In this document: piece by piece, positions 8,360 through 16,620 of the stretch
Numbering within the stretch: the stretch's first letter is position 1
Layout of the letters: the number at the start of each line of letters is the position of its first letter
Assembly: GCF_055900595.2 (NCBI RefSeq)
Contig: NZ_CM148325.1
DNA length: 64,000 bases
Direction: 5' to 3' (one strand)
Translations under genes and position numbers: made by a program
The notes under the pieces: model-generated
Seen by the model: only the letters and a program-made list of their open reading frames with translations
Databases searched by the model: none
Told to the model about the DNA's origin: nothing

Positions 8360-9037
8360 TTAATCGTACGAGTCGAGTATGTTCTGAAACGCCCAGCCAT
8401 CCTCCTTAGGAACACAAGACAGAATCGAATGAATTAGATCCCCTGCGGAAAGAAGTAACCCTTCTTGCCCTTCAAGAAAATAACGCCATTTAGGTCCATG
8501 AAACAGATTGTTCCGTAACCGGAAACAAACGAACAAGCACACTGCAAGCTGAGTCTCAGGCTCGGTTGTCATAGCTTGCATGGCTGAAAAACAGTCATCT
8601 CTCGCCTTTTGAGAGGTGTGGTGTAATTCCCCGCATAGGCTTTCAAACTTGCTTTTATCATTTACATAGCGTTCTGAAAAAAAATCGTATGTACACTTGA
8701 GAACCCCCAGATCCACAACCTCCATTTGCAAAAGACGATTGGCATATTTCGCACTTTTGCCTTGCCCCCCAGCGCAATTAAGAAGTAGAGACTCGAAGAA
8801 AGAGAAGTACAAAAAATAACGATTAACGGCGGTAAGGATAGATGGGGTAATCCTGCCTTCTGCATTAATCAACTCGTCAAATTCTGATGAAAAATCCAAC
8901 TGTTCATCCTTTTCCATTATATTCGGCCATTTATTGATATTGCACATCAGTCGCTCTTGGCAATGACAGGTTTGCTCTCGGTAATGTCTCAAACGCCCCA
9001 AAAAGTAGTCTCGCAAATGCTCTAGTTGCTCGCGCAT
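8360..9037 (-). CDS. Hypothetical protein with a HEPN-like Rx4H motif (possible abortive-infection RNase)
   Basis: 225-aa ORF; C-terminal region contains ...CLFVCFRLRNNLFHGPKWRYF... (R-x4-H); AT-rich; weak RBS, start codon uncertain (alternative MEKDEQLDF...). Confidence 0.45.
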   Translation of the reverse strand: MREQLEHLRDYFLGRLRHYREQTCHCQERLMCNINKWPNIMEKDEQLDFSSEFDELINAEGRITPSILTAVNRYFLYFSFFESLLLNCAGGQGKSAKYANRLLQMEVVDLGVLKCTYDFFSERYVNDKSKFESLCGELHHTSQKARDDCFSAMQAMTTEPETQLAVCLFVCFRLRNNLFHGPKWRYFLEGQEGLLLSAGDLIHSILSCVPKEDGWAFQNILDSYD

Positions 9038-9161
9038 AACAACTTCGGCGATAACCGGCTATTCGGTCGTTCTTTATACGCTACGCTTGAAGGCGCAAGG
9101 CCAACGCTTACCTTGTCACGTTCCTATTGCGGTTTTGCTGCAATGTTCCTGTCAGTCTGAC

Positions 9162-9189
9162 ATAAAAAACCCCTCAATCATCTGAGGGG
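9162..9189 (-). terminator. Rho-independent terminator after the 66-aa gene
   Basis: On the minus strand CCCCTCA-GATGAT-TGAGGGG followed by TTTTTTAT. Confidence 0.55.
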
Positions 9190-9197
9190 ATTAGACA

Positions 9198-9398
9198 TCA
9201 TTGCTTCCAATACTTTTGAACCCGGATATTCATTGGCACACAAACATTTTCATAGATAGGGCCGCTAACAGTCATGACTATATAAATACCATCAAGACCA
9301 TCAATATTAAGCGAGAGTCTATCTCCGGCTCTAACCTCACGCTCTAGTTCAATATCTTCTACTCGTCCAGTATCATCGAAAGTCACTGAATACATCAT
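9198..9398 (-). CDS. Hypothetical small protein (66 aa)
   Basis: ORF MMYSVTFDDTGRVEDIELEREVRAGDRLSLNIDGLDGIYIVMTVSGPIYENVCVPMNIRVQKYWKQ followed by its own terminator; no recognisable family. Confidence 0.35.
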   Translation of the reverse strand: MMYSVTFDDTGRVEDIELEREVRAGDRLSLNIDGLDGIYIVMTVSGPIYENVCVPMNIRVQKYWKQ

Positions 9399-9560
9399 TT
9401 CAAATTTCCATCTAAGTGCATGAGGTGTCTAACGAAAATACCATAAAGAGAATTTGATTACATTGAACTTTTTCAGTGCTTACTTGGCTTATCTGAAGCC
9501 TTAATCATTGCCGCCCAGTGCGCTACCTGCTTGCATCCATTCAGCGCCTAATATGTAAAA

Positions 9561-10169
9561 CTATTGCAATCTAGCCTGACGCAAATGTGGCAATACCCTG
9601 CTCCACTTATTATCCTGCCAAGGCTGGAATTTTACATGTGCCGTTTTTCTGGCAAGGATTTCGCGCGCCTTATGTAGTATCTGGGGATATTCTTGCTCGA
9701 TAGAAGTAAAGCGACCGGCTTCGCGGTGTTCCGCAACCTGAAGAAGTGGAGTAACGTTCTGGCAGGCGGTTAACATCGTATCACTTGCTCGCCATAACCA
9801 AGCAAGTGTGCAAAGTTCGTTATCAGTGAATTGTTTTGTGATCGGGGATTGTTGAACTTCTCGATCGAGAATATCCAGAACCCAGCGGCGGAACTCTTTG
9901 GCTACAGGAGTTCGTGCAAACATGGCGATCAAATGGGCTCCGCGAAGGCTAAATACTCGAGACTCCTGCATTCCACGAGGGGTGGTCACTTTGACCACCC
10001 TTGTCATCATATCTGTAAATTCATCTGAGTGACGAGAGTAAATGCGCTGAACTGCTTTATCGTCCGCATATTCCAGAGCTAAACCAACTTCAGTGGCAGT
10101 AAGCCAAATTCTGTTATTGTGGCAAATTGGGGTAAACGTCGTTTTGTGGAATGCTAATTGAGTAGTCAT
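9561..10169 (-). CDS. Bro-N-like / phage antirepressor-family protein
   Basis: 202-aa ORF with N-terminal ...FHKTTFTPICHNNRIWLTATEVGLALEY...RGMQESRVFSLRGAHLIAMFARTPVAKEFRRWVLDIL...; good SD (GAGGTGA) 5 nt upstream of ATG. Confidence 0.55.
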   Translation of the reverse strand: MTTQLAFHKTTFTPICHNNRIWLTATEVGLALEYADDKAVQRIYSRHSDEFTDMMTRVVKVTTPRGMQESRVFSLRGAHLIAMFARTPVAKEFRRWVLDILDREVQQSPITKQFTDNELCTLAWLWRASDTMLTACQNVTPLLQVAEHREAGRFTSIEQEYPQILHKAREILARKTAHVKFQPWQDNKWSRVLPHLRQARLQ

Positions 10170-10331
10170 AGTATCACCTCATCAGGTTAACCATCACCAC
10201 CAACGACGCCAATCGACTGGTGGTGAACTGTGCAAGGTTGGCGTAACCGGCTACTCAAACCCGGCGCTCCCGAAGAAGCCCTCACACAGCCCACCATAAT
10301 TTGGGCGTAGCCGTGCTTAGCGCATAAAAAA

Positions 10332-10346
10332 ACCGCTTAACGCGGT
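10332..10346 (-). terminator. Possible rho-independent terminator upstream of the Bro-N-like gene
   Basis: Minus strand ACCGC-GTTAA-GCGGT followed by TTTTTTTAT; short stem. Confidence 0.35.
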
Positions 10347-10432
10347 ATGCGTTGAGTAGTATTCCGGGACGCCAATCCCGTGTGCCGATTTTGCGGCAAC
10401 GCACAGAATATAGCGCCGGATAAATAATGTCG

Positions 10433-10621
10433 TCAACCCTTGCAAATGGGTGGCGCGATGATCACTACTACCACTATAACCGCTCCAACTGTTGCAACTA
10501 CTTTAGGCCAAGACATCAAGATTTCCATATCACCTTTAGCTGCGAAACGAACAGAGGTTCCCATCTCTATACTGCCGAGGCCAAACACCGAATATAAAAA
10601 ACCGCAGGTGCATTTCTGCAT
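10433..10621 (-). CDS. Possible small hydrophobic peptide (about 31 aa from the internal start MEILMSWPKVVATVGAVIVVVVIIAPPICKG)
   Basis: Track ORF of 62 aa; internal ATG preceded by AAAGGTGAT; hydrophobic C-terminal segment; starts inside direct repeat B. Confidence 0.2.
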   Translation of the reverse strand: MQKCTCGFLYSVFGLGSIEMGTSVRFAAKGDMEILMSWPKVVATVGAVIVVVVIIAPPICKG

Positions 10622-10720
10622 CTATGACGGGAGAAGATAGTTTGGATTGTGTGGGCTCATAAACTCCCCGTTTGGTGCAGTAGTCACCGTAGTTGTTCAT
10701 ATTCTGATGACATGATAATT
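10596..10720. repeat. Direct repeat B (about 125 bp), partner of 8209..8333
   Basis: AAAAAACCGCAGGTGCATTTCTGCATCTATGACGGGAGAAGATAGTTTGGATTGT..., same orientation as repeat A. Confidence 0.75.
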
Positions 10721-10917
10721 TCCTATTGAATAGAAAAAATTAACACTACTCATTCTTATGACTAGAAAAAGCAATCATGCTAATAATCATTGTTGTTCCA
10801 GTTCCAAATGCAGCGAAATAATCACTAATATTTTTTCTACCGGTTTCGACTTTGATGCTATATTCTGCTAACACCTAACTAACACTACGTTTCACACAGC
10901 AATTACATGGAAATAAC

Positions 10918-11265
10918 ATGACTATCAAAGCGACTGACATAGAGATTCTTCATCGTTATGCTGAAGGGGTAATGGAACGTTCTAACCATCATGCAAAAAA
11001 TGTTGGTGCAGCCGCTCTTACATTGCTAGGAGGTGTTATCTGGAAAGCCCTGCCCGGCTCAATCGAGATAAGAACGTATAACGGAAGTCTTGCAAATATG
11101 GTGTGGTGGCAAAGCGAAAGAACATTAAAAAATTATGCAATCTCATACAACCATAATTCATGTGAAATTGAAATGAGAGATGAATCAGTCAAAGGTGCTG
11201 TATTATTTAGCATTTCCAACGAAACCACTCCAGAAAAAATATTATCACAGCTTTCTGAGCTTTAA
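10918..11265 (+). CDS. Hypothetical protein (115 aa), oriented against the surrounding early operon
   Basis: ORF MTIKATDIEILHRYAEGVMERSNHHAKNVGAAALTLLGGVIWKALPGSIEIRTYNGSLANMVWWQSERTL...; AT-rich; no family recognised. Confidence 0.45.
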   Translation: MTIKATDIEILHRYAEGVMERSNHHAKNVGAAALTLLGGVIWKALPGSIEIRTYNGSLANMVWWQSERTLKNYAISYNHNSCEIEMRDESVKGAVLFSISNETTPEKILSQLSEL

Positions 11266-11270
11266 TTAAA

Positions 11271-11288
11271 GGCGGTGCTAACACCGCC
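11271..11288 (-). terminator. Hairpin terminator between P and the 115-aa gene (tR2-like position)
   Basis: GGCGGTG-CTAA-CACCGCC; on the minus strand followed by TTTAATTAAA. Confidence 0.45.
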
Positions 11289-11469
11289 CATACCATTACT
11301 CCACATCTTACGCAACTTGATAATTATGCTCTATTAAATACCCACAATATTTCATCAATGCATGGGTCAGCTATAAAATGTTTACCGTGGTAATTCCTGT
11401 TTTCGCAACATCTCAAAAGAACAATAAACACTGTATTTCTTCAAGTAACGAAGAATCTTTCTTTGCCCG

Positions 11470-13183: not shown

Positions 13184-13723
13184 TCATATCGCCCCCAGCA
13201 TGGTAGTAACCATCGCCATCAATGGACCAGCCAGATCTGGGTCCACACGAAACATCGATACAATACCTTCACTAATTTCCTTCAGTTTCTGGTGGCGTGG
13301 TGCGTTGAGAATGACAGCCTGTTTTGCCTCACTGAGTTCCTTTTCCATTTCAGCCAGCCGAGCTATGAAGCTATCCTGCTCAACCAGGTGGCCGCGATAT
13401 TCCAGCGGTAGTACCGCCAGAATTGCCGGGGTCAGTTCACGCACGTTATTTCGGTATTTTTCAGAATCGAATTTGTTATCGAGGAAGCGGAACAGCTTCT
13501 GGCGTGCACGGCTGACATCATCAGGGAAATCGATGGTGCCGCCGCCCTGCTCCCGATACTCATTCACAATGAGTGCGGCAACGACATCCTGATTATCTAC
13601 AGCCGACCAGGCGCGGACGGCATCACGGATTTTTTCGTGGCCTGGAGCTTGTTTTGTTTGAGAACGATTTATCACCGCAGTCGGGCTAAATCCGCTAGTC
13701 TGTTGGTATGTAAGTGGTTGCAT
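13184..13723 (-). CDS. CII-position regulator, YdaT-like
   Basis: 179-aa ORF with strong SD (AAAGGAG); ...VNEYREQGGGTIDFP...LTPAILAVLPLEYRGHL... resembles Rac YdaT (EEYLRQGGGELPL / LIPAILAILPRELRHRL, from memory). Confidence 0.55.
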   Translation of the reverse strand: MQPLTYQQTSGFSPTAVINRSQTKQAPGHEKIRDAVRAWSAVDNQDVVAALIVNEYREQGGGTIDFPDDVSRARQKLFRFLDNKFDSEKYRNNVRELTPAILAVLPLEYRGHLVEQDSFIARLAEMEKELSEAKQAVILNAPRHQKLKEISEGIVSMFRVDPDLAGPLMAMVTTMLGAI

Positions 13724-13792: not shown

Positions 13793-14023
13793 TTAAGCTG
13801 CGTTCTTTTCAGTGTGTGGAAACAACTTCGGAAGATCCGGGCGAATCTGGTATGCCTTCACTACTCCACCAGTAGCCGTAACAATGCTGCCGACATGTTC
13901 AGGGGATACCTTTGCTTTGTTGTGAAGCCACTTATAGACGGCCTGCTGTGAAACTTCGCAGGCAGCGCCTAGTTTCTTTTGTGAACCAACGATATTGATC
14001 GCTGTTTTGATGGCTGGGTTCAT
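13793..14023 (-). CDS. cro: Cro-like HTH repressor (YdaS-type)
   Basis: 76-aa ORF MNPAIKTAINIVGSQKKLGAACEVSQQAVYKWLHNKAKVSPEHV...; divergent from cI. Confidence 0.6.
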   Translation of the reverse strand: MNPAIKTAINIVGSQKKLGAACEVSQQAVYKWLHNKAKVSPEHVGSIVTATGGVVKAYQIRPDLPKLFPHTEKNAA

Positions 14024-14127
14024 AACAACCTCCGTGGTTAATTTGAATCAAGATTAAAACTATGGTTGTTTTTAGTCAACAACCATTTTCGTTTGATGAA
14101 ATAAAACCTTGGTTGTACATTTGGACT
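14024..14127. promoter_or_regulatory. Divergent cro/cI control region (oR-like operators with pR/pRM)
   Basis: Perfect palindrome ATGGTTGTT-tttagtc-AACAACCAT at 14062..14086 plus further TGGTTGT/ACAACA half-sites; cI AUG at 14128 lacks an SD, consistent with a leaderless pRM-type transcript. Confidence 0.5.
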
Positions 14128-14817
14128 ATGAAAACAACACTCTCAGAAAGACTTAAAGAAGCCAGATTAGCGCGAGGCCTTACACAAAAGGCGCTTGGGG
14201 ATTTGGTCGGGGTTAGCCAAGCAGCTATTCAGAAAATCGAAACAGGGAAAGCTAACCAAACAACTAAAATCGTGGAGATCGCGAACGCTTTGGGTGTGCG
14301 CGCAGAATGGTTATCTTCTGGCGTTGGAAATATGTCAGACAGTACAGTGCAACCAATACAAACAACTGTCAGCCATTCCAAATACTTTAAGATTGACGTT
14401 CTTGATATCGAAGTGAGTGCCGGGCCGGGAGTCATCAACCGTGAGTTTGTAGAAGTTCTACGTTCGGTTGAGTATTCGTTTGACGATGCTCGTCACATGT
14501 TCGATGGCAGGAAGGCGGAAAATATCCGTATCATTAACGTACGCGGTGACAGCATGTCAGGAACGATCGAACCAGGTGATCTGCTATTCGTTGATATCAC
14601 TGTTAAATCTTTCGACGGTGATGGTATCTATGCGTTTCTGTACGACGACACAGCCCATGTAAAGCGCCTGCAAATGATGAAGGATAAACTGCTGGTTATC
14701 TCTGATAACAAGAGCTACTCACCGTGGGACCCAATCGAGAAAGACGAGATGAACCGGGTATTCATCTTCGGGAAAGTCATCGGGAGCATGCCGCAGACGT
14801 ATAGGAAGCATGGATAA
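14128..14817 (+). CDS. cI: CI-type prophage repressor (N-terminal HTH, C-terminal LexA-like S24 peptidase)
   Basis: MKTTLSERLKEARLARGLTQKALGDLVGVSQAAIQKIETGK... then ...EVSAGPG...INVRGDSMSGTIEPGDLLFVD...HVKRL... (Ala-Gly cleavage site, Ser/Lys dyad). Confidence 0.85.
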   Translation: MKTTLSERLKEARLARGLTQKALGDLVGVSQAAIQKIETGKANQTTKIVEIANALGVRAEWLSSGVGNMSDSTVQPIQTTVSHSKYFKIDVLDIEVSAGPGVINREFVEVLRSVEYSFDDARHMFDGRKAENIRIINVRGDSMSGTIEPGDLLFVDITVKSFDGDGIYAFLYDDTAHVKRLQMMKDKLLVISDNKSYSPWDPIEKDEMNRVFIFGKVIGSMPQTYRKHG

Positions 14818-14912
14818 TTCGACATAAATTCAACAAGTTAACTTTGGCTTCAAAAAAGCATCGATAACATTGCATTATATTTTTCCTTTTGTCTAACTTA
14901 AAAGGATGAACA

Positions 14913-15638
14913 ATGGAAGAACGTGGGAATTACCTAATAGACCCCCTAGAAGTAATTGGTTCTGGCGGTTTTGGCCTTGTAGAAAAAATAAGGTTATATA
15001 ACTCACAAAGAAAAATTTGTGGTCTATATGCCAGAAAAATTTTACGACCTGATGCAACAGATCCTGAACTCTTTACCAGATTTGAACGAGAAGTAAGATA
15101 TCAAACTGAATGCCTGCATACTAATATTGTCCAAATATTCATATGCCACTTACAGAATGCTCAGCCTTGGTTCGTAATGGAACTAGCAGAAACAAATCTT
15201 GAAGAAGAAATAAAAAGTGGAACTCTTACAAAGGCTGAAAAAATCTCTATTGTAAAAATGGTACTAAATGCCGTCGGATGGATTCATAAGAAAGGATATC
15301 TTCATCGGGATATAAAACCACTAAATGTACTAAAATTTAAAGATGGAATTTATAAGTTATCTGACTTCGGCCTTGCAAAAAATGTGTCACCAGATGCCAA
15401 TACACAGCTATTAACACAAATTGGCCAATACCCCGCTACTCCTAAATACTTTGATTACAACGTTTTCCTCAACGGATATTCAAAACAATCAGATATATAT
15501 TCAATTGGTATTTTAATTGAAGAATTAAATATTGATGGTTTTGATGATATAATAAACAAATGTACGCATAGACAACTTAACAAAAGATTCCTGACCGTAG
15601 AGCAGATCTTTGAGGAATTGGAGTTGAAACGCTTATGA
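14913..15638 (+). CDS. Hanks-type (eukaryotic-like) Ser/Thr protein kinase, compact catalytic domain only
   Basis: 241 aa; glycine-rich loop GSGGFG; catalytic loop HRDIKPLN; DFG motif SDFGLAK; SD AGGA 7 nt upstream; AT-rich. Confidence 0.85.
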   Translation: MEERGNYLIDPLEVIGSGGFGLVEKIRLYNSQRKICGLYARKILRPDATDPELFTRFEREVRYQTECLHTNIVQIFICHLQNAQPWFVMELAETNLEEEIKSGTLTKAEKISIVKMVLNAVGWIHKKGYLHRDIKPLNVLKFKDGIYKLSDFGLAKNVSPDANTQLLTQIGQYPATPKYFDYNVFLNGYSKQSDIYSIGILIEELNIDGFDDIINKCTHRQLNKRFLTVEQIFEELELKRL

Positions 15639-16378
15639 TTAGCATACTCTCATCATCCATATTTTCTGTACCAAAACATAATGGCAGGGAAAATCAAGAT
15701 AGCGTGCTTTATCCACTTCAAACACCAAATGGTTATCTTATGGCTATAGCTGATGGGGTTGGTGGTTATAAAGGAGGAAAAGAAGCATCTGCAGCAGTAA
15801 TAAATCATTTGTATAGTATTAAAGACAGCTTCACTCATGAAGACAATGTCTTATCCTTACTTAAGACCCTACAAGAAAAGGTGGCATCTCTTTCGTCAGT
15901 TGATAAAGAATTAGCATCTGCTGCTACAACTTTAACAATGTGCCTACTTCACAATCAAGGTCTAACAATTATACATGTAGGTGACTGTCGTGTTTATTTA
16001 AAAAATGGAAATAAGCTAATCCAATTAACAACAGATCATACTCAACATCAAATGTTGATAGATAGCGGTATTTATACAGCTCGACAGCTCAAAAATGCAA
16101 AAGGTAAAAATATTATTACAACTGCACTTGCTGCCAAGATCCCCCTTCAACATCAAGTCATAAATATTGATAAAGATGAACTTCCTCTTGACGATGGTGT
16201 TCTATCTCTATTCATCATGTCTGATGGCGCGCATACCTTTTGGGAGCAACGCCCACGATTTTCTTACCGTACATTGTCAACCGCATCAAGGTTTGCCTCC
16301 AGCCTAATGCGAAGAATAGAGACAAAAGGCCCGACTGACGATTATTCTCTTATAGCGGTAAATGTAAAGTATTTGTAA
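15635..16378 (+). CDS. PP2C-family (PPM) Ser/Thr protein phosphatase
   Basis: 247 aa; AIADGVGG and HVGDCRVYL metal-binding motifs, ...FIMSDGAHT...; start ATG overlaps the kinase stop (ATGA). Confidence 0.8.
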   Translation: MISILSSSIFSVPKHNGRENQDSVLYPLQTPNGYLMAIADGVGGYKGGKEASAAVINHLYSIKDSFTHEDNVLSLLKTLQEKVASLSSVDKELASAATTLTMCLLHNQGLTIIHVGDCRVYLKNGNKLIQLTTDHTQHQMLIDSGIYTARQLKNAKGKNIITTALAAKIPLQHQVINIDKDELPLDDGVLSLFIMSDGAHTFWEQRPRFSYRTLSTASRFASSLMRRIETKGPTDDYSLIAVNVKYL

Positions 16379-16382
16379 ACTT

Positions 16383-16410
16383 CCCGGCCACCGTGCCGGG
16401 TTTTCTTTTA
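16383..16410 (+). terminator. Rho-independent terminator ending the cI-kinase-phosphatase operon
   Basis: CCCGGC-CACCGT-GCCGGG followed by TTTTCTTTTAT. Confidence 0.6.
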
Positions 16411-16479: not shown

Positions 16480-16620
16480 GCAAGTCACAAAATAAATCCA
16501 TCCTAAATACAACCAGTTACATCTAAAACAACCAATAAAACAACTTTTGTTGTTGACGATAAAACAACTATAGTTTTAAATAAATTCATCGCAACAACAC
16601 AACGATACGGCAACCACCTG
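16480..16620 (+). promoter_or_regulatory. Putative oL/pL region (operator half-sites and a candidate leftward promoter)
   Basis: Several ACAACCA/ACAAC half-sites similar to the oR sites; candidate -35 TTGACG and -10 TAAATA with an 18-bp spacer reading toward gam-bet-exo. Confidence 0.35.

What the first reader, a model, noticed from the sequence alone, without database searches (positions are those of the whole stretch)
14913..16410. Ser/Thr kinase plus PP2C phosphatase operon in the rexAB slot downstream of cI: candidate lysogen-expressed phage-exclusion module
Directly downstream of the cI repressor, on the same strand and before the operon terminator and putative oL/pL, lie two translationally coupled genes (ATGA overlap at 15635..15638). 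The first is a compact 241-aa Hanks-type kinase (GSGGFG glycine loop, HRDIKPLN catalytic loop, SDFGLAK). The second is a 247-aa PP2C-type phosphatase (DGVGG and GDCRV metal-binding motifs). This is the position where lambda carries rexA/rexB and where other lambdoid phages carry lysogen-expressed exclusion genes; from memory, phage 933W carries a Stk kinase there that excludes HK97. Both genes are visibly more AT-rich than the flanking cI and Red genes, consistent with moron acquisition. I do not recall a characterised kinase-phosphatase pair in this prophage context; the phosphatase could act as a built-in reset or antitoxin-like partner for a kinase that shuts down the infected cell. I rate this the most likely new system in the window.
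Basis: partly seen in the sequence, partly recalled or inferred. Interest (0 to 1): 0.85.

Follow-up and report, generated by a model that had tools for sequence, protein, structure and literature searches.

The report
Prophage kinase-phosphatase cassette beside cI
A two-gene cassette encoding a small protein kinase and a matching protein phosphatase sits in the accessory-gene slot just after a prophage's repressor gene; it belongs to a widespread family for which I found no published test, and it probably works like the published KKP kinase-phosphatase toxin-antitoxin phage defence.

Summary
Window 14913..15638 encodes a 241-aa Hanks-type Ser/Thr kinase. Window 15635..16378 encodes a 247-aa PP2C phosphatase. 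The two genes overlap by ATGA, follow a cI-like repressor on the same strand, and end at an intrinsic terminator (16383..16410). All catalytic residues are invariant across each family.

Sister phages are 97% identical up to the cI stop codon and again from the first terminator base. The cargo is therefore exactly 14818..16381, in a slot that elsewhere holds other two-gene modules or nothing.

The kinase-then-phosphatase pair is a mobile unit. It was intact as a pair in all 80 phosphatase-seeded and all 80 kinase-seeded viral loci. It lies after cI, after Q, after Rz or after N in lambdoid phages, and also in Klebsiella satellite-like elements. All recognised members are Gammaproteobacteria. 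The kinase is sometimes decayed or absent beside an intact phosphatase; the reverse was never seen.

The concept is not new. KKP (Guo et al. 2024) is a prophage kinase-kinase-phosphatase toxin-antitoxin defence. This cassette fails KKP's defining architecture, and I found no paper on it.

Verdict: a plausible, untested defence or toxin-antitoxin module, and a new variant of a known kind.

The parts
13793..14023 (-). cro-like regulator, divergent from the repressor (context)
   Evidence: ORF. Annotated as a transcriptional regulator or Cro in the same backbone.
14062..14817 (+). cI-like HTH + S24 peptidase repressor (PGAP start is 14128); first gene of the inferred operon
   Evidence: PHROG 4 at 4e-73 and PHROG 6201 (CI-like) at 2.5e-46. 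Annotated as S24 family peptidase in L001.
14818..16381 (+). The exchangeable cargo cassette: spacer, kinase and phosphatase
   Evidence: Homology to sister phages PhiR47_2 and PhiR5_1 (97%) stops at 14816/14817 and resumes at 16382/16383. G+C is 0.32-0.37.
14902..14906 (+). Shine-Dalgarno AAGGA, 6 nt before the kinase ATG
   Evidence: Read from the sequence.
14913..15638 (+). Compact Hanks-type Ser/Thr protein kinase, 241 aa, kinase domain only; proposed toxic effector
   Evidence: Pfam Pkinase 7e-32. PHROG 2361 at 2e-60. Invariant catalytic residues. AF2 model with pLDDT 87 and a kinase fold at TM 0.75-0.82.
15635..16378 (+). PP2C/PPM Ser/Thr phosphatase, 247 aa, translationally coupled through an ATGA overlap; proposed antidote and possible sensor
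   Evidence: Pfam PP2C_2 1e-11. Invariant metal-binding Asp residues. AF2 model with pLDDT 91, matching PstP, tPphA and Stp1 at TM 0.72-0.82. Overlap read.
16383..16410 (+). Intrinsic terminator of the immunity operon; part of the conserved phage backbone, not of the cargo
   Evidence: CCCGGC-loop-GCCGGG followed by TTTTCTTTT. Backbone homology resumes at 16382/16383.
16539..16590 (+). Putative oL/pL: operator-like palindrome AACAACTTTTGTTGTT, then TTGACG, a 17-nt spacer and TTAAAT (inferred)
   Evidence: One match in the window against 0.04 expected. Related half-sites GGTTGT/ACAACC occur between cro and cI. Sequence read.

Best explanation
**What it is.** The cargo at 14818..16381 is a mobile two-gene phosphorylation switch carried as a prophage accessory module.

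**Proposed mechanism.**
- In this lysogen it is transcribed together with cI from the maintenance promoter and stops at the shared terminator. This is inferred from the layout.
- The first product is a minimal, constitutively competent Ser/Thr kinase. It has no sensor or docking domain, and the alpha-G helix is missing. It would be harmful if unrestrained, because it would phosphorylate host or phage proteins needed for growth.
- The second product is a PP2C phosphatase. Its start codon overlaps the kinase stop codon, so it is made whenever the kinase is made.
- The phosphatase keeps the kinase's activation loop (conserved Thr168) and its substrates dephosphorylated.
- Infection by another phage upsets this balance. 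The most likely route is a phage protein that blocks the phosphatase, as T4 Gp59 does to KKP's PfpC.
- Kinase activity then arrests the cell and aborts the infection, which protects the lysogen population.

**Shown here:** gene families, intact catalytic sites, coupling, exact cassette borders, mobility as a pair, and kinase-only decay.

**Inferred:** expression in lysogens, kinase toxicity, the antidote role, the defence role and the trigger.
For: **Both enzymes look active.** Every canonical catalytic residue is invariant across 28 kinases and 26 phosphatases down to 40% identity. The structure models are confident.

**Coupling is conserved.** The junction is a 4-nt ATGA overlap in 60 of 80 loci and lies within about 8 nt in nearly all the others.

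**Pairing is obligate.**
- All 80 phosphatase-seeded viral loci have the kinase directly upstream.
- All 80 kinase-seeded loci have the phosphatase directly downstream.

**Decay is asymmetric.**
- The kinase carries a nonsense mutation (L052), a frameshift (L181) or a 5' deletion (L071, L075/L076, L081).
- The kinase is absent altogether in L178 and L192.
- In each case the phosphatase beside it is intact. The reverse was never seen.

**Location fits an accessory or defence module.**
- The slot is bounded exactly by the cI stop codon and the terminator. In sister prophages it holds other two-gene cargo, or nothing. The other cargo includes pairs their depositors annotated as toxin/antitoxin, and an ImmA/IrrE + DUF4411 pair.
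- The same slot holds stk in 933W-type phages.
- The pair also sits in other moron slots of lambdoid phages and in Klebsiella satellite-like elements.

**Kinase resemblance.** It matches anti-phage kinase models: mad6 5e-39, PD-T4-6 1e-34, Stk2 2e-27.

**Precedent.** In KKP the PP2C is the antitoxin and the phage-sensing point (PMC11341870).
Against: - There are no expression, toxicity or plating data.
- Roughly half of the viral contexts lie after Q or after Rz, inside the late region. Transcription there is expected mainly during lytic growth, which fits a phage-benefit function as well as defence.
- The PADLOC kinase hits cover only the generic kinase domain. PD-T4-6 models also catch housekeeping kinases (PMC11514479).
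- The phosphatase matches only one candidate model weakly (PDC-M21C, 8e-9).
- The decay asymmetry rests on 7 loci with a decayed or missing kinase, in sets that were not dereplicated.
- No conserved promoter travels with the cassette.
- In KKP a single kinase alone is neither toxic nor active, so toxicity of a lone kinase cannot be assumed.
Confidence: 0.5

Rival explanations
1. The module regulates the prophage's own life cycle. The kinase-phosphatase balance would set the phosphorylation state of the repressor, or of a host nucleoid or silencing protein. That would tune induction or lysogeny, as KKP does through MvaU in Pseudomonas.
For: The cassette sits in the cI operon here and in 11 of 71 viral loci, including Rac-like phages. 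KKP has exactly this second function.
Against: Most copies are far from the immunity region: after Q, after Rz, after N, or in satellite-like elements. Sister phages with the same cI carry unrelated cargo or none, so the switch does not need the module. No target is known.
Confidence: 0.15
2. The module is a lytic-cycle host-takeover or counter-defence function. The kinase would modify host machinery or host defence proteins during phage growth, in the manner of T7 Gp0.7. The phosphatase would limit or time the effect.
For: About two dozen viral loci place the pair directly after the Q antiterminator and before the lysis genes. About ten place it after Rz, and four after an N-like antiterminator. 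These are positions transcribed during lytic development.
Against: Here the pair lies in the repressor operon, upstream of the terminator, so it should be made in the lysogen and switched off on induction. It also occurs in satellite-like elements. A stoichiometrically coupled antagonist and recurrent loss of the kinase alone are not expected for a simple takeover enzyme. Late-region morons such as bor, lom and stx often have their own promoters (established knowledge).
Confidence: 0.15
3. The module is a lysogenic-conversion signalling pair. It would alter host physiology, for example stress tolerance or virulence, with no role in phage-phage conflict. This is comparable to chromosomal Stk/Stp pairs.
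For: The nearest NCBIfam models are the Stk1 and Stp1 families. From memory, the Salmonella Typhi prpZ-prkY-prkX cluster was linked to survival in macrophages.
Against: Scores are far below the family cut-offs (105 against 450, and 110 against 230). There is no sensor, PASTA or membrane segment. The distribution is that of a phage or satellite moron, present in only 14 of 5426 complete E. coli genomes.
Confidence: 0.1

Closest known systems
KKP (PfpC-PfkB-PfkA) kinase-kinase-phosphatase module of Pf6, P2, P4 and Mu-like prophages (Guo et al. 2024, PMC11341870)
   Same: Both are prophage- or satellite-borne, and both combine Hanks-type Ser/Thr kinase(s) with a PP2C (PF13672) phosphatase. In KKP the phosphatase is the enzymatic antitoxin and the point where a phage protein (T4 Gp59) triggers defence. 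That is the logic proposed here.
   Different: KKP has three genes in the order phosphatase-kinase-kinase, each 900-1300 bp. Its kinases carry C-terminal FHA and cold-shock domains, and both are required for activity and toxicity. The cassette here has two genes in the order kinase-phosphatase, with one 241-aa kinase and no extra domain. Sequence relatedness to KKP proteins could not be measured, because no KKP sequence was available in the tools.
Stk of Shiga-toxin phage 933W / phi24B (Friedman et al. 2011, cited in PMC9122126; region seen)
   Same: A eukaryotic-like kinase encoded between cI and oL. From the cited title, it causes abortive infection of a heterologous phage.
   Different: Stk is a single gene of 348 aa with a C-terminal extension and HFD instead of HRD. 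It is only 26% identical to the kinase here, and no partner phosphatase is annotated.
Single-gene anti-phage kinases Stk2 (Staphylococcus) and PD-T4-6 (E. coli)
   Same: Both are Hanks-type kinase domains. The PADLOC models match at 2e-27 and 1e-34.
   Different: Both are stand-alone, longer proteins (profiles of 292-547 positions). Only their kinase core aligns, and neither has a phosphatase partner. PD-T4-6 models are not specific.
TerY-P triad (Gao et al. 2020; recalled from memory)
   Same: A defence system that contains both a Ser/Thr kinase and a PP2C phosphatase.
   Different: It needs a TerY (vWA) protein as a third component. The cargo here holds only two genes, and no TerY-P phosphatase model matched.
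Lambda RexAB
   Same: RexAB occupies the same position, downstream of cI in the pRM/pRE transcript. It is expressed in the lysogen and excludes other phages (established knowledge).
   Different: The proteins and mechanism are unrelated.
Housekeeping kinase/phosphatase pairs PknB/PstP and Stk1/Stp1
   Same: These are the best structural and sequence matches for both proteins. In them the phosphatase dephosphorylates the kinase's activation loop (established knowledge).
   Different: Their gene order is usually phosphatase first. Their kinases are long, membrane-anchored and carry PASTA sensor domains. NCBIfam scores here are far below the cut-offs.

Membership tests
Hanks-type (eukaryotic-like) Ser/Thr protein kinases, Pfam PF00069 | Gly-rich loop, VAIK Lys, alpha-C Glu, HRDxKxxN catalytic loop, DFG | tested here: met
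   Pfam 7e-32. G18, G21, K42, E60, H131-R132-D133, K135, N138 and D151-F152-G153 are invariant in 28 family members. The AF2 model has a kinase fold.
Hanks-type (eukaryotic-like) Ser/Thr protein kinases, Pfam PF00069 | Complete C-lobe (alpha-F, G, H, I) | tested here: not met
   The Pfam match stops at model position 190 of 263. About 36 residues are missing relative to StkP between alpha-F and alpha-H. The model has only two helices after alpha-F. The whole family is 241-260 aa. I read this as loss of alpha-G, not as inactivation.
PP2C/PPM phosphatases, Pfam PF13672 / PF00481 | Metal-binding Asp residues of motifs 1, 2, 8 and 11, and the PP2C fold | tested here: met
   Pfam 1e-11 and 1.5e-7. 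D22, D40-G41, D117, D197-G198 and D235-D236 are invariant. TM 0.72-0.82 to PstP, tPphA and Stp1.
KKP (Guo et al. 2024) | Gene triplet in the order PP2C, kinase, kinase | tested here: not met
   There are two genes, in the order kinase then PP2C. The cargo is bounded by the cI stop codon and the terminator. The order is conserved in all 80 + 80 viral loci.
KKP (Guo et al. 2024) | PfkA-type kinase fused to a cold-shock domain, and PfkB-type kinase fused to an FHA domain | tested here: not met
   The kinase is 241 aa, and only Pkinase/PK_Tyr_Ser-Thr domains were found.
KKP (Guo et al. 2024) | Located in temperate prophages or satellites | tested here: met
   Lambdoid prophages and Klebsiella satellite-like elements.
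KKP (Guo et al. 2024) | Kinase toxicity neutralised by the phosphatase; defence against lytic phages | not testable with these tools
   Only indirect evidence: kinase-only decay.
933W-type Stk | Orthology to Stk (348 aa, C-terminal extension) | tested here: not met
   26% identity over the kinase core. Stk has HFD where this protein has HRD, and there is no C-terminal extension.
933W-type Stk | Position between cI and oL | tested here: met
PD-T4-6 / Stk2 single-gene defence kinases (PADLOC) | Full-length match to the system's model | tested here: inconclusive
   E-values of 1e-34 and 2e-27, but only over the kinase core (profile positions 15-205 of 327, and 129-352 of 500). The models are known to hit housekeeping kinases.
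MADS MAD6 kinase | NCBIfam NF047741 at or above its cut-off of 460 bits | tested here: not met
   66.7 bits.
Stk1 / Stp1 (PASTA kinase and its phosphatase) | NCBIfam NF033483 at or above 450 bits and NF033484 at or above 230 bits; PASTA domains | tested here: not met
   105 and 110 bits. The kinase has nothing beyond residue 241.
TerY-P | Adjacent TerY (vWA) gene | tested here: not met
   The cargo contains only the two genes.
Type VII toxin-antitoxin systems (enzymatic antitoxin) | The antitoxin inactivates the toxin, or reverses its action, by chemical modification | not testable with these tools
   Consistent with the enzyme pair, the coupling and the asymmetric decay. No assay was possible.

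The most novel reading that the evidence does not exclude
The compact kinase-then-PP2C pair is a self-contained, two-enzyme abortive-infection switch, distinct from KKP. It would consist of one alpha-G-less kinase held off by a translationally coupled phosphatase that acts as the phage sensor. It moves as a unit between the cI, N, Q and Rz accessory slots of lambdoid phages and satellites across Gammaproteobacteria. This would make it the simplest known phosphorylation-based immune module and a common, overlooked cargo of prophage hotspots.
Probability: 0.4. Interest if true: 0.65.

Novelty: new variant of a known kind. Interest (0 to 1): 0.55.

Why it matters
Phosphorylation-based phage defence is known from only a few systems: Stk of 933W, Stk2, PD-T4-6, TerY-P and KKP. 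Mechanistic detail exists for very few of them.

If this pair defends, it would be the minimal form of the KKP logic. That form has one kinase and one phosphatase, with no accessory domains. It would be easy to dissect for trigger sensing and substrate choice.

It is also common enough to affect phage-therapy host range. It is frequent in Klebsiella satellite-like elements, and it occurs in lambdoid prophages of many Enterobacterales, Pasteurellales, Vibrionales, Pseudomonas, Xanthomonas and Acinetobacter.

Current PADLOC-type annotation does not call it as a system.

The exact cargo borders found here also define a clean, polymorphic slot between the cI stop codon and the terminator. That slot can be mined for further lysogen-expressed modules.

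Tried and rejected
**Literature**
- Searches for the depositors' names of the alternative cargo (GevT/GevA, HipD, PhiR phages) returned nothing relevant.
- Searches for a two-gene kinase/PP2C defence found only KKP.
- The PDC candidate with a PP2C in Payne et al. is mentioned only in a figure legend.

**Relatedness to other cargo**
- The pair annotated 'HipA/HipD' in the same slot of PhiR5_1 is unrelated by BLASTP and has no NCBIfam hit.

**Cassette-borne promoter**
- The spacers upstream of the kinase are not alignable between cassettes beyond the ribosome-binding site.
- The consensus scan found no + strand promoter between cI and the kinase.

**Search for KKP-like sequences to compare against**
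- The weak phosphatase hits (under 30% identity) from the genome scan were inspected as possible KKP-like loci.
- They are ordinary phosphatase-then-membrane-kinase pairs with a single kinase.
- No KKP sequence could be obtained with the tools, so relatedness to KKP was not measured.

**Curated family models**
- All hits are far below their cut-offs, so the proteins cannot be filed under any named equivalog.

**Neighbouring low-GC ORFs** (8360-11265)
- No NCBIfam or PADLOC hit.
Full report
**1. What is in the sequence**

Two ORFs lie head to tail on the + strand. The first runs 14913..15638 (241 aa) and the second 15635..16378 (247 aa). The stop codon of the first overlaps the start codon of the second in ATGA at 15635..15638.

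The first ORF is preceded by AAGGA, 6 nt before its ATG. It begins 95 nt after the stop codon of a cI-like HTH + S24 repressor at 14062..14817 (PHROG 4 at 4e-73, CI-like PHROG 6201 at 2.5e-46). That repressor is divergent from a cro-like gene.

Four bases after the second ORF's stop codon comes a GC-rich hairpin with a T-run (16383..16410). After that comes an operator-like palindrome, AACAACTTTTGTTGTT, at 16539..16554. It occurs once in the window against 0.04 expected, and it overlaps a TTGACG / 17-nt spacer / TTAAAT promoter-like site. Then follow kil, gam, bet, exo and int.

G+C falls to 0.32-0.37 over the pair, against 0.46-0.52 on either side.

**2. The two proteins**

The first protein is a Hanks-type kinase.
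- Pfam Pkinase scores 7e-32 and PHROG 2361 'serine-threonine kinase' scores 2e-60.
- In an alignment of 28 family members down to 40% identity, the following are invariant: the Gly-loop (G18, G21), the ATP-binding Lys (K42), the alpha-C Glu (E60), the catalytic loop (H131, R132, D133, K135, N138), DFG (151-153), and D194, G199 and R225.
- A Thr in the activation loop (T168) is nearly invariant.

The kinase is unusually small.
- The Pfam match ends at model position 190 of 263.
- Compared with StkP, about 36 residues between alpha-F and alpha-H are missing.
- The AlphaFold model (pLDDT 87, pTM 0.85) has only two helices after alpha-F and a disordered activation loop at 155-172.
- It superposes on PknB and FGFR2 kinase domains at TM 0.75-0.82.

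I read this as a catalytically intact kinase that lacks the alpha-G docking helix and has no sensor or targeting domain. That reading is inference.

The second protein is a PP2C phosphatase.
- Pfam PP2C_2 scores 1e-11 and PP2C 1.5e-7.
- D22, D40-G41, D117, D197-G198 and D235-D236 are invariant, together with a family-specific FWExRPRF motif.
- The model has pLDDT 91 and matches PstP, tPphA and Stp1 at TM 0.72-0.82.
- All NCBIfam hits for both proteins are far below their curated cut-offs.

**3. The slot**

Sister lambdoid phages PhiR47_2 and PhiR5_1 are 97% identical to the window up to 14816/14817, which is the cI stop codon. They are 97% identical again from 16382/16383, which is the first base of the terminator stem. 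The cargo is therefore exactly 14818..16381, and the terminator belongs to the backbone.

The same slot holds different cargo in other phages and prophages.
- A pair the depositors call GevT/GevA, a 353-357-aa protein plus an ASCH-domain protein.
- A pair they call HipA/HipD, unrelated to the pair here.
- A single 313-aa hypothetical gene.
- An ImmA/IrrE + DUF4411 pair, behind a different repressor.
- Essentially nothing, in PhiR34_1 and Turner, judged from the lengths of the matches.

The terminator-side flank is present in 336 of 5426 complete E. coli genomes. The kinase-phosphatase cargo is present in only 14 of them, at 99.7-99.9% identity.

The absence of a terminator between cI and 16383, and the shared terminator after it, argue that the cargo is co-transcribed with cI in the lysogen, as rexAB is in lambda. 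This is inference. No RNA data were available, and no cassette-borne promoter was found.

**4. The pair is a mobile unit**

Homologous pairs (40-47% identity) lie between Rz and the small terminase gene in phage Flotzy, and between Q and the lysis genes in Cronobacter phage phiES15.

A scan of IMG/VR seeded with the phosphatase family returned 80 loci. All 80 have the kinase directly upstream on the same strand. The junction is a 4-nt overlap in 60 of them and lies within about 8 nt in nearly all the rest. A scan seeded with the kinase family returned 80 loci, all with the phosphatase directly downstream.

Flanking genes were clustered and annotated with PHROGs. Of 71 loci with an upstream flank:
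- 11 have the pair after a cI-like repressor, with cro and cII/YdaT divergent from it;
- about two dozen have it after a Q antiterminator, though many of these are near-identical;
- about ten have it after Rz;
- four have it after an N-like antiterminator;
- a few have it next to Ant.

The loci were not dereplicated.

In Klebsiella the pair is very common. It was listed in 885 index blocks, and it sits in elements with D5_N or DUF927 primases, AlpA and Phage_ASH, which look like satellites. In Raoultella it again follows the repressor of a Rac-like prophage. In Xanthomonas the pair is also preserved.

In one genome per species (100,044 species), about 31 true family members were found. All are Gammaproteobacteria, from Enterobacterales, Pasteurellales, Vibrionales, Oceanospirillales, Pseudomonas, Xanthomonas and Acinetobacter.

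**5. Asymmetric decay**

Several loci have an intact phosphatase beside a damaged or missing kinase.
- Nonsense mutation in the kinase: L052.
- Frameshift in the kinase: L181.
- 5' deletion of the kinase: L071, L075/L076, L081.
- No trace of the kinase at all: L178, L192.

No locus had a kinase without a phosphatase. This pattern is expected if the kinase is harmful without its partner. The numbers are small and the sets were not dereplicated, so I treat this as suggestive.

**6. Comparison with known systems**

The kinase matches PADLOC models of anti-phage kinases: mad6 5e-39, PD-T4-6 1e-34, Stk2 2e-27. The matches cover only the kinase core, and PD-T4-6 models are known to hit housekeeping kinases (PMC11514479). 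The phosphatase matches only one candidate model weakly (PDC-M21C, 8e-9).

933W-type phages do carry stk between cI and oL. But Stk is 348 aa, has HFD in place of HRD, and is only 26% identical.

The closest [19 protein letters not shown] is KKP (Guo et al. 2024, PMC11341870).
- It consists of a PP2C (PfpC) followed by two kinases (PfkB with an FHA domain, PfkA with a cold-shock domain), and it is found in more than 1000 prophages.
- The two kinases together are the toxin and the phosphatase is the antitoxin.
- T4 Gp59 binds the phosphatase and triggers defence.
- KKP also controls Pf prophage production through MvaU phosphorylation.

The cassette here fails KKP's defining architecture. It has two genes rather than three, the opposite gene order, and a single kinase without FHA or cold-shock domains. 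I therefore do not file it as KKP. KKP's search strategy looked only for phosphatase-kinase-kinase triplets, so it would have missed this family.

I found no paper on a two-gene compact kinase/PP2C cassette in the held library. That library is incomplete.

**7. Most likely mechanism and rivals**

Best supported, at about 0.5: a toxin-antitoxin-like phosphorylation switch used for phage exclusion. It would be expressed with cI. The kinase is the effector. The coupled phosphatase is the antidote and the probable sensing point.

Rivals:
- Control of the prophage's own switch (0.15). This is favoured by the cI linkage and the KKP precedent, and disfavoured by the many other locations.
- A lytic-cycle takeover or counter-defence function (0.15). 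This is favoured by the post-Q and post-Rz locations, and disfavoured by the repressor-operon location here, by the satellite-like elements and by kinase-only decay.
- Lysogenic conversion of host physiology (0.1).

None of these can be settled without experiments.

**8. Verdict**

The thing is real, and in the held library I found no paper that describes it. It is widespread and easy to test.

The underlying idea, a prophage kinase restrained by a PP2C antitoxin that provides defence, has been published. I therefore rate it a new variant of a known kind, with interest 0.55.

Noticed in passing
window 14818..16381, compared with L013, L014, L250, L251, L252: The interval between the cI stop codon and the immunity terminator is a sharply bounded, polymorphic cargo slot. 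It holds the kinase/PP2C pair, a 353-357-aa protein plus an ASCH-domain protein ('GevT/GevA'), a 'HipA/HipD'-labelled pair, a single 313-aa hypothetical gene, ImmA/IrrE + DUF4411, or nothing. 336 of 5426 complete E. coli genomes share the terminator-side flank.
   Followed up: partly
window 8360..11442: This is a mosaic segment absent from the sister prophage L001, which has an alpha/beta hydrolase, ybcK and emrE there. Its right-hand part, about 10400..11400, has G+C 0.37-0.42. It carries ORFs at 8360..9037 (-), 9561..10169 (-) and 10918..11265 (+). None has an NCBIfam or PADLOC hit. It may be a second accessory-gene slot next to the replication genes.
   Followed up: partly
window 20383..21638: The integrase (20383..21546) abuts a tRNA-Arg(tct) gene (21562..21638, - strand). 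The otherwise 98% identical immunity and recombination region in E. coli ChlosBP-23-1 (L001) ends in a different integrase next to icd. The same early region is thus joined to different integration modules.
   Followed up: partly
L049 / L127 (IMG/VR 2548876519_000008); protein P0123 (Yersinia enterocolitica, 366 aa): This is a variant locus. The phosphatase ORF is about 390 aa and scores 540 bits against the family profile, against about 385 bits for normal members. It is separated by about 740 nt from a kinase that is cut off by the contig end. This may be a partial duplication or an insertion. It was not examined.
   Followed up: no
kinase residues 176-186 (window about 15438..15470); alignment A1: More distant family members keep the canonical APE motif at the end of the activation segment (e.g. 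YMAPEV). The enterobacterial clade that includes this protein has YFDYNV/YFDHGV instead. The invariant Arg225, which normally pairs with the APE Glu, is retained.
   Followed up: no
window 15635..16378: PHROG 5650, the phosphatase's best phage family (1.4e-53), has a 565-position profile of which the protein matches only 276-519. Some members may be kinase-phosphatase fusions or merged gene calls.
   Followed up: no
window 13184..13723 (-): The gene in the cII position is a YdaT-toxin-domain protein according to the PGAP annotation of the same backbone (L001). The depositors of the sister phages call it cII (L013). It has no NCBIfam or PADLOC hit, and its role is unclear.
   Followed up: partly
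L250 6181..7074 (E. coli SCU-152): A DGQHR-domain protein sits directly after exo and DUF1317 in a sister prophage. The window and L001 have other genes there, and the window and L001 themselves diverge between 19060 and 19344. This may be another variable accessory position.
   Followed up: no
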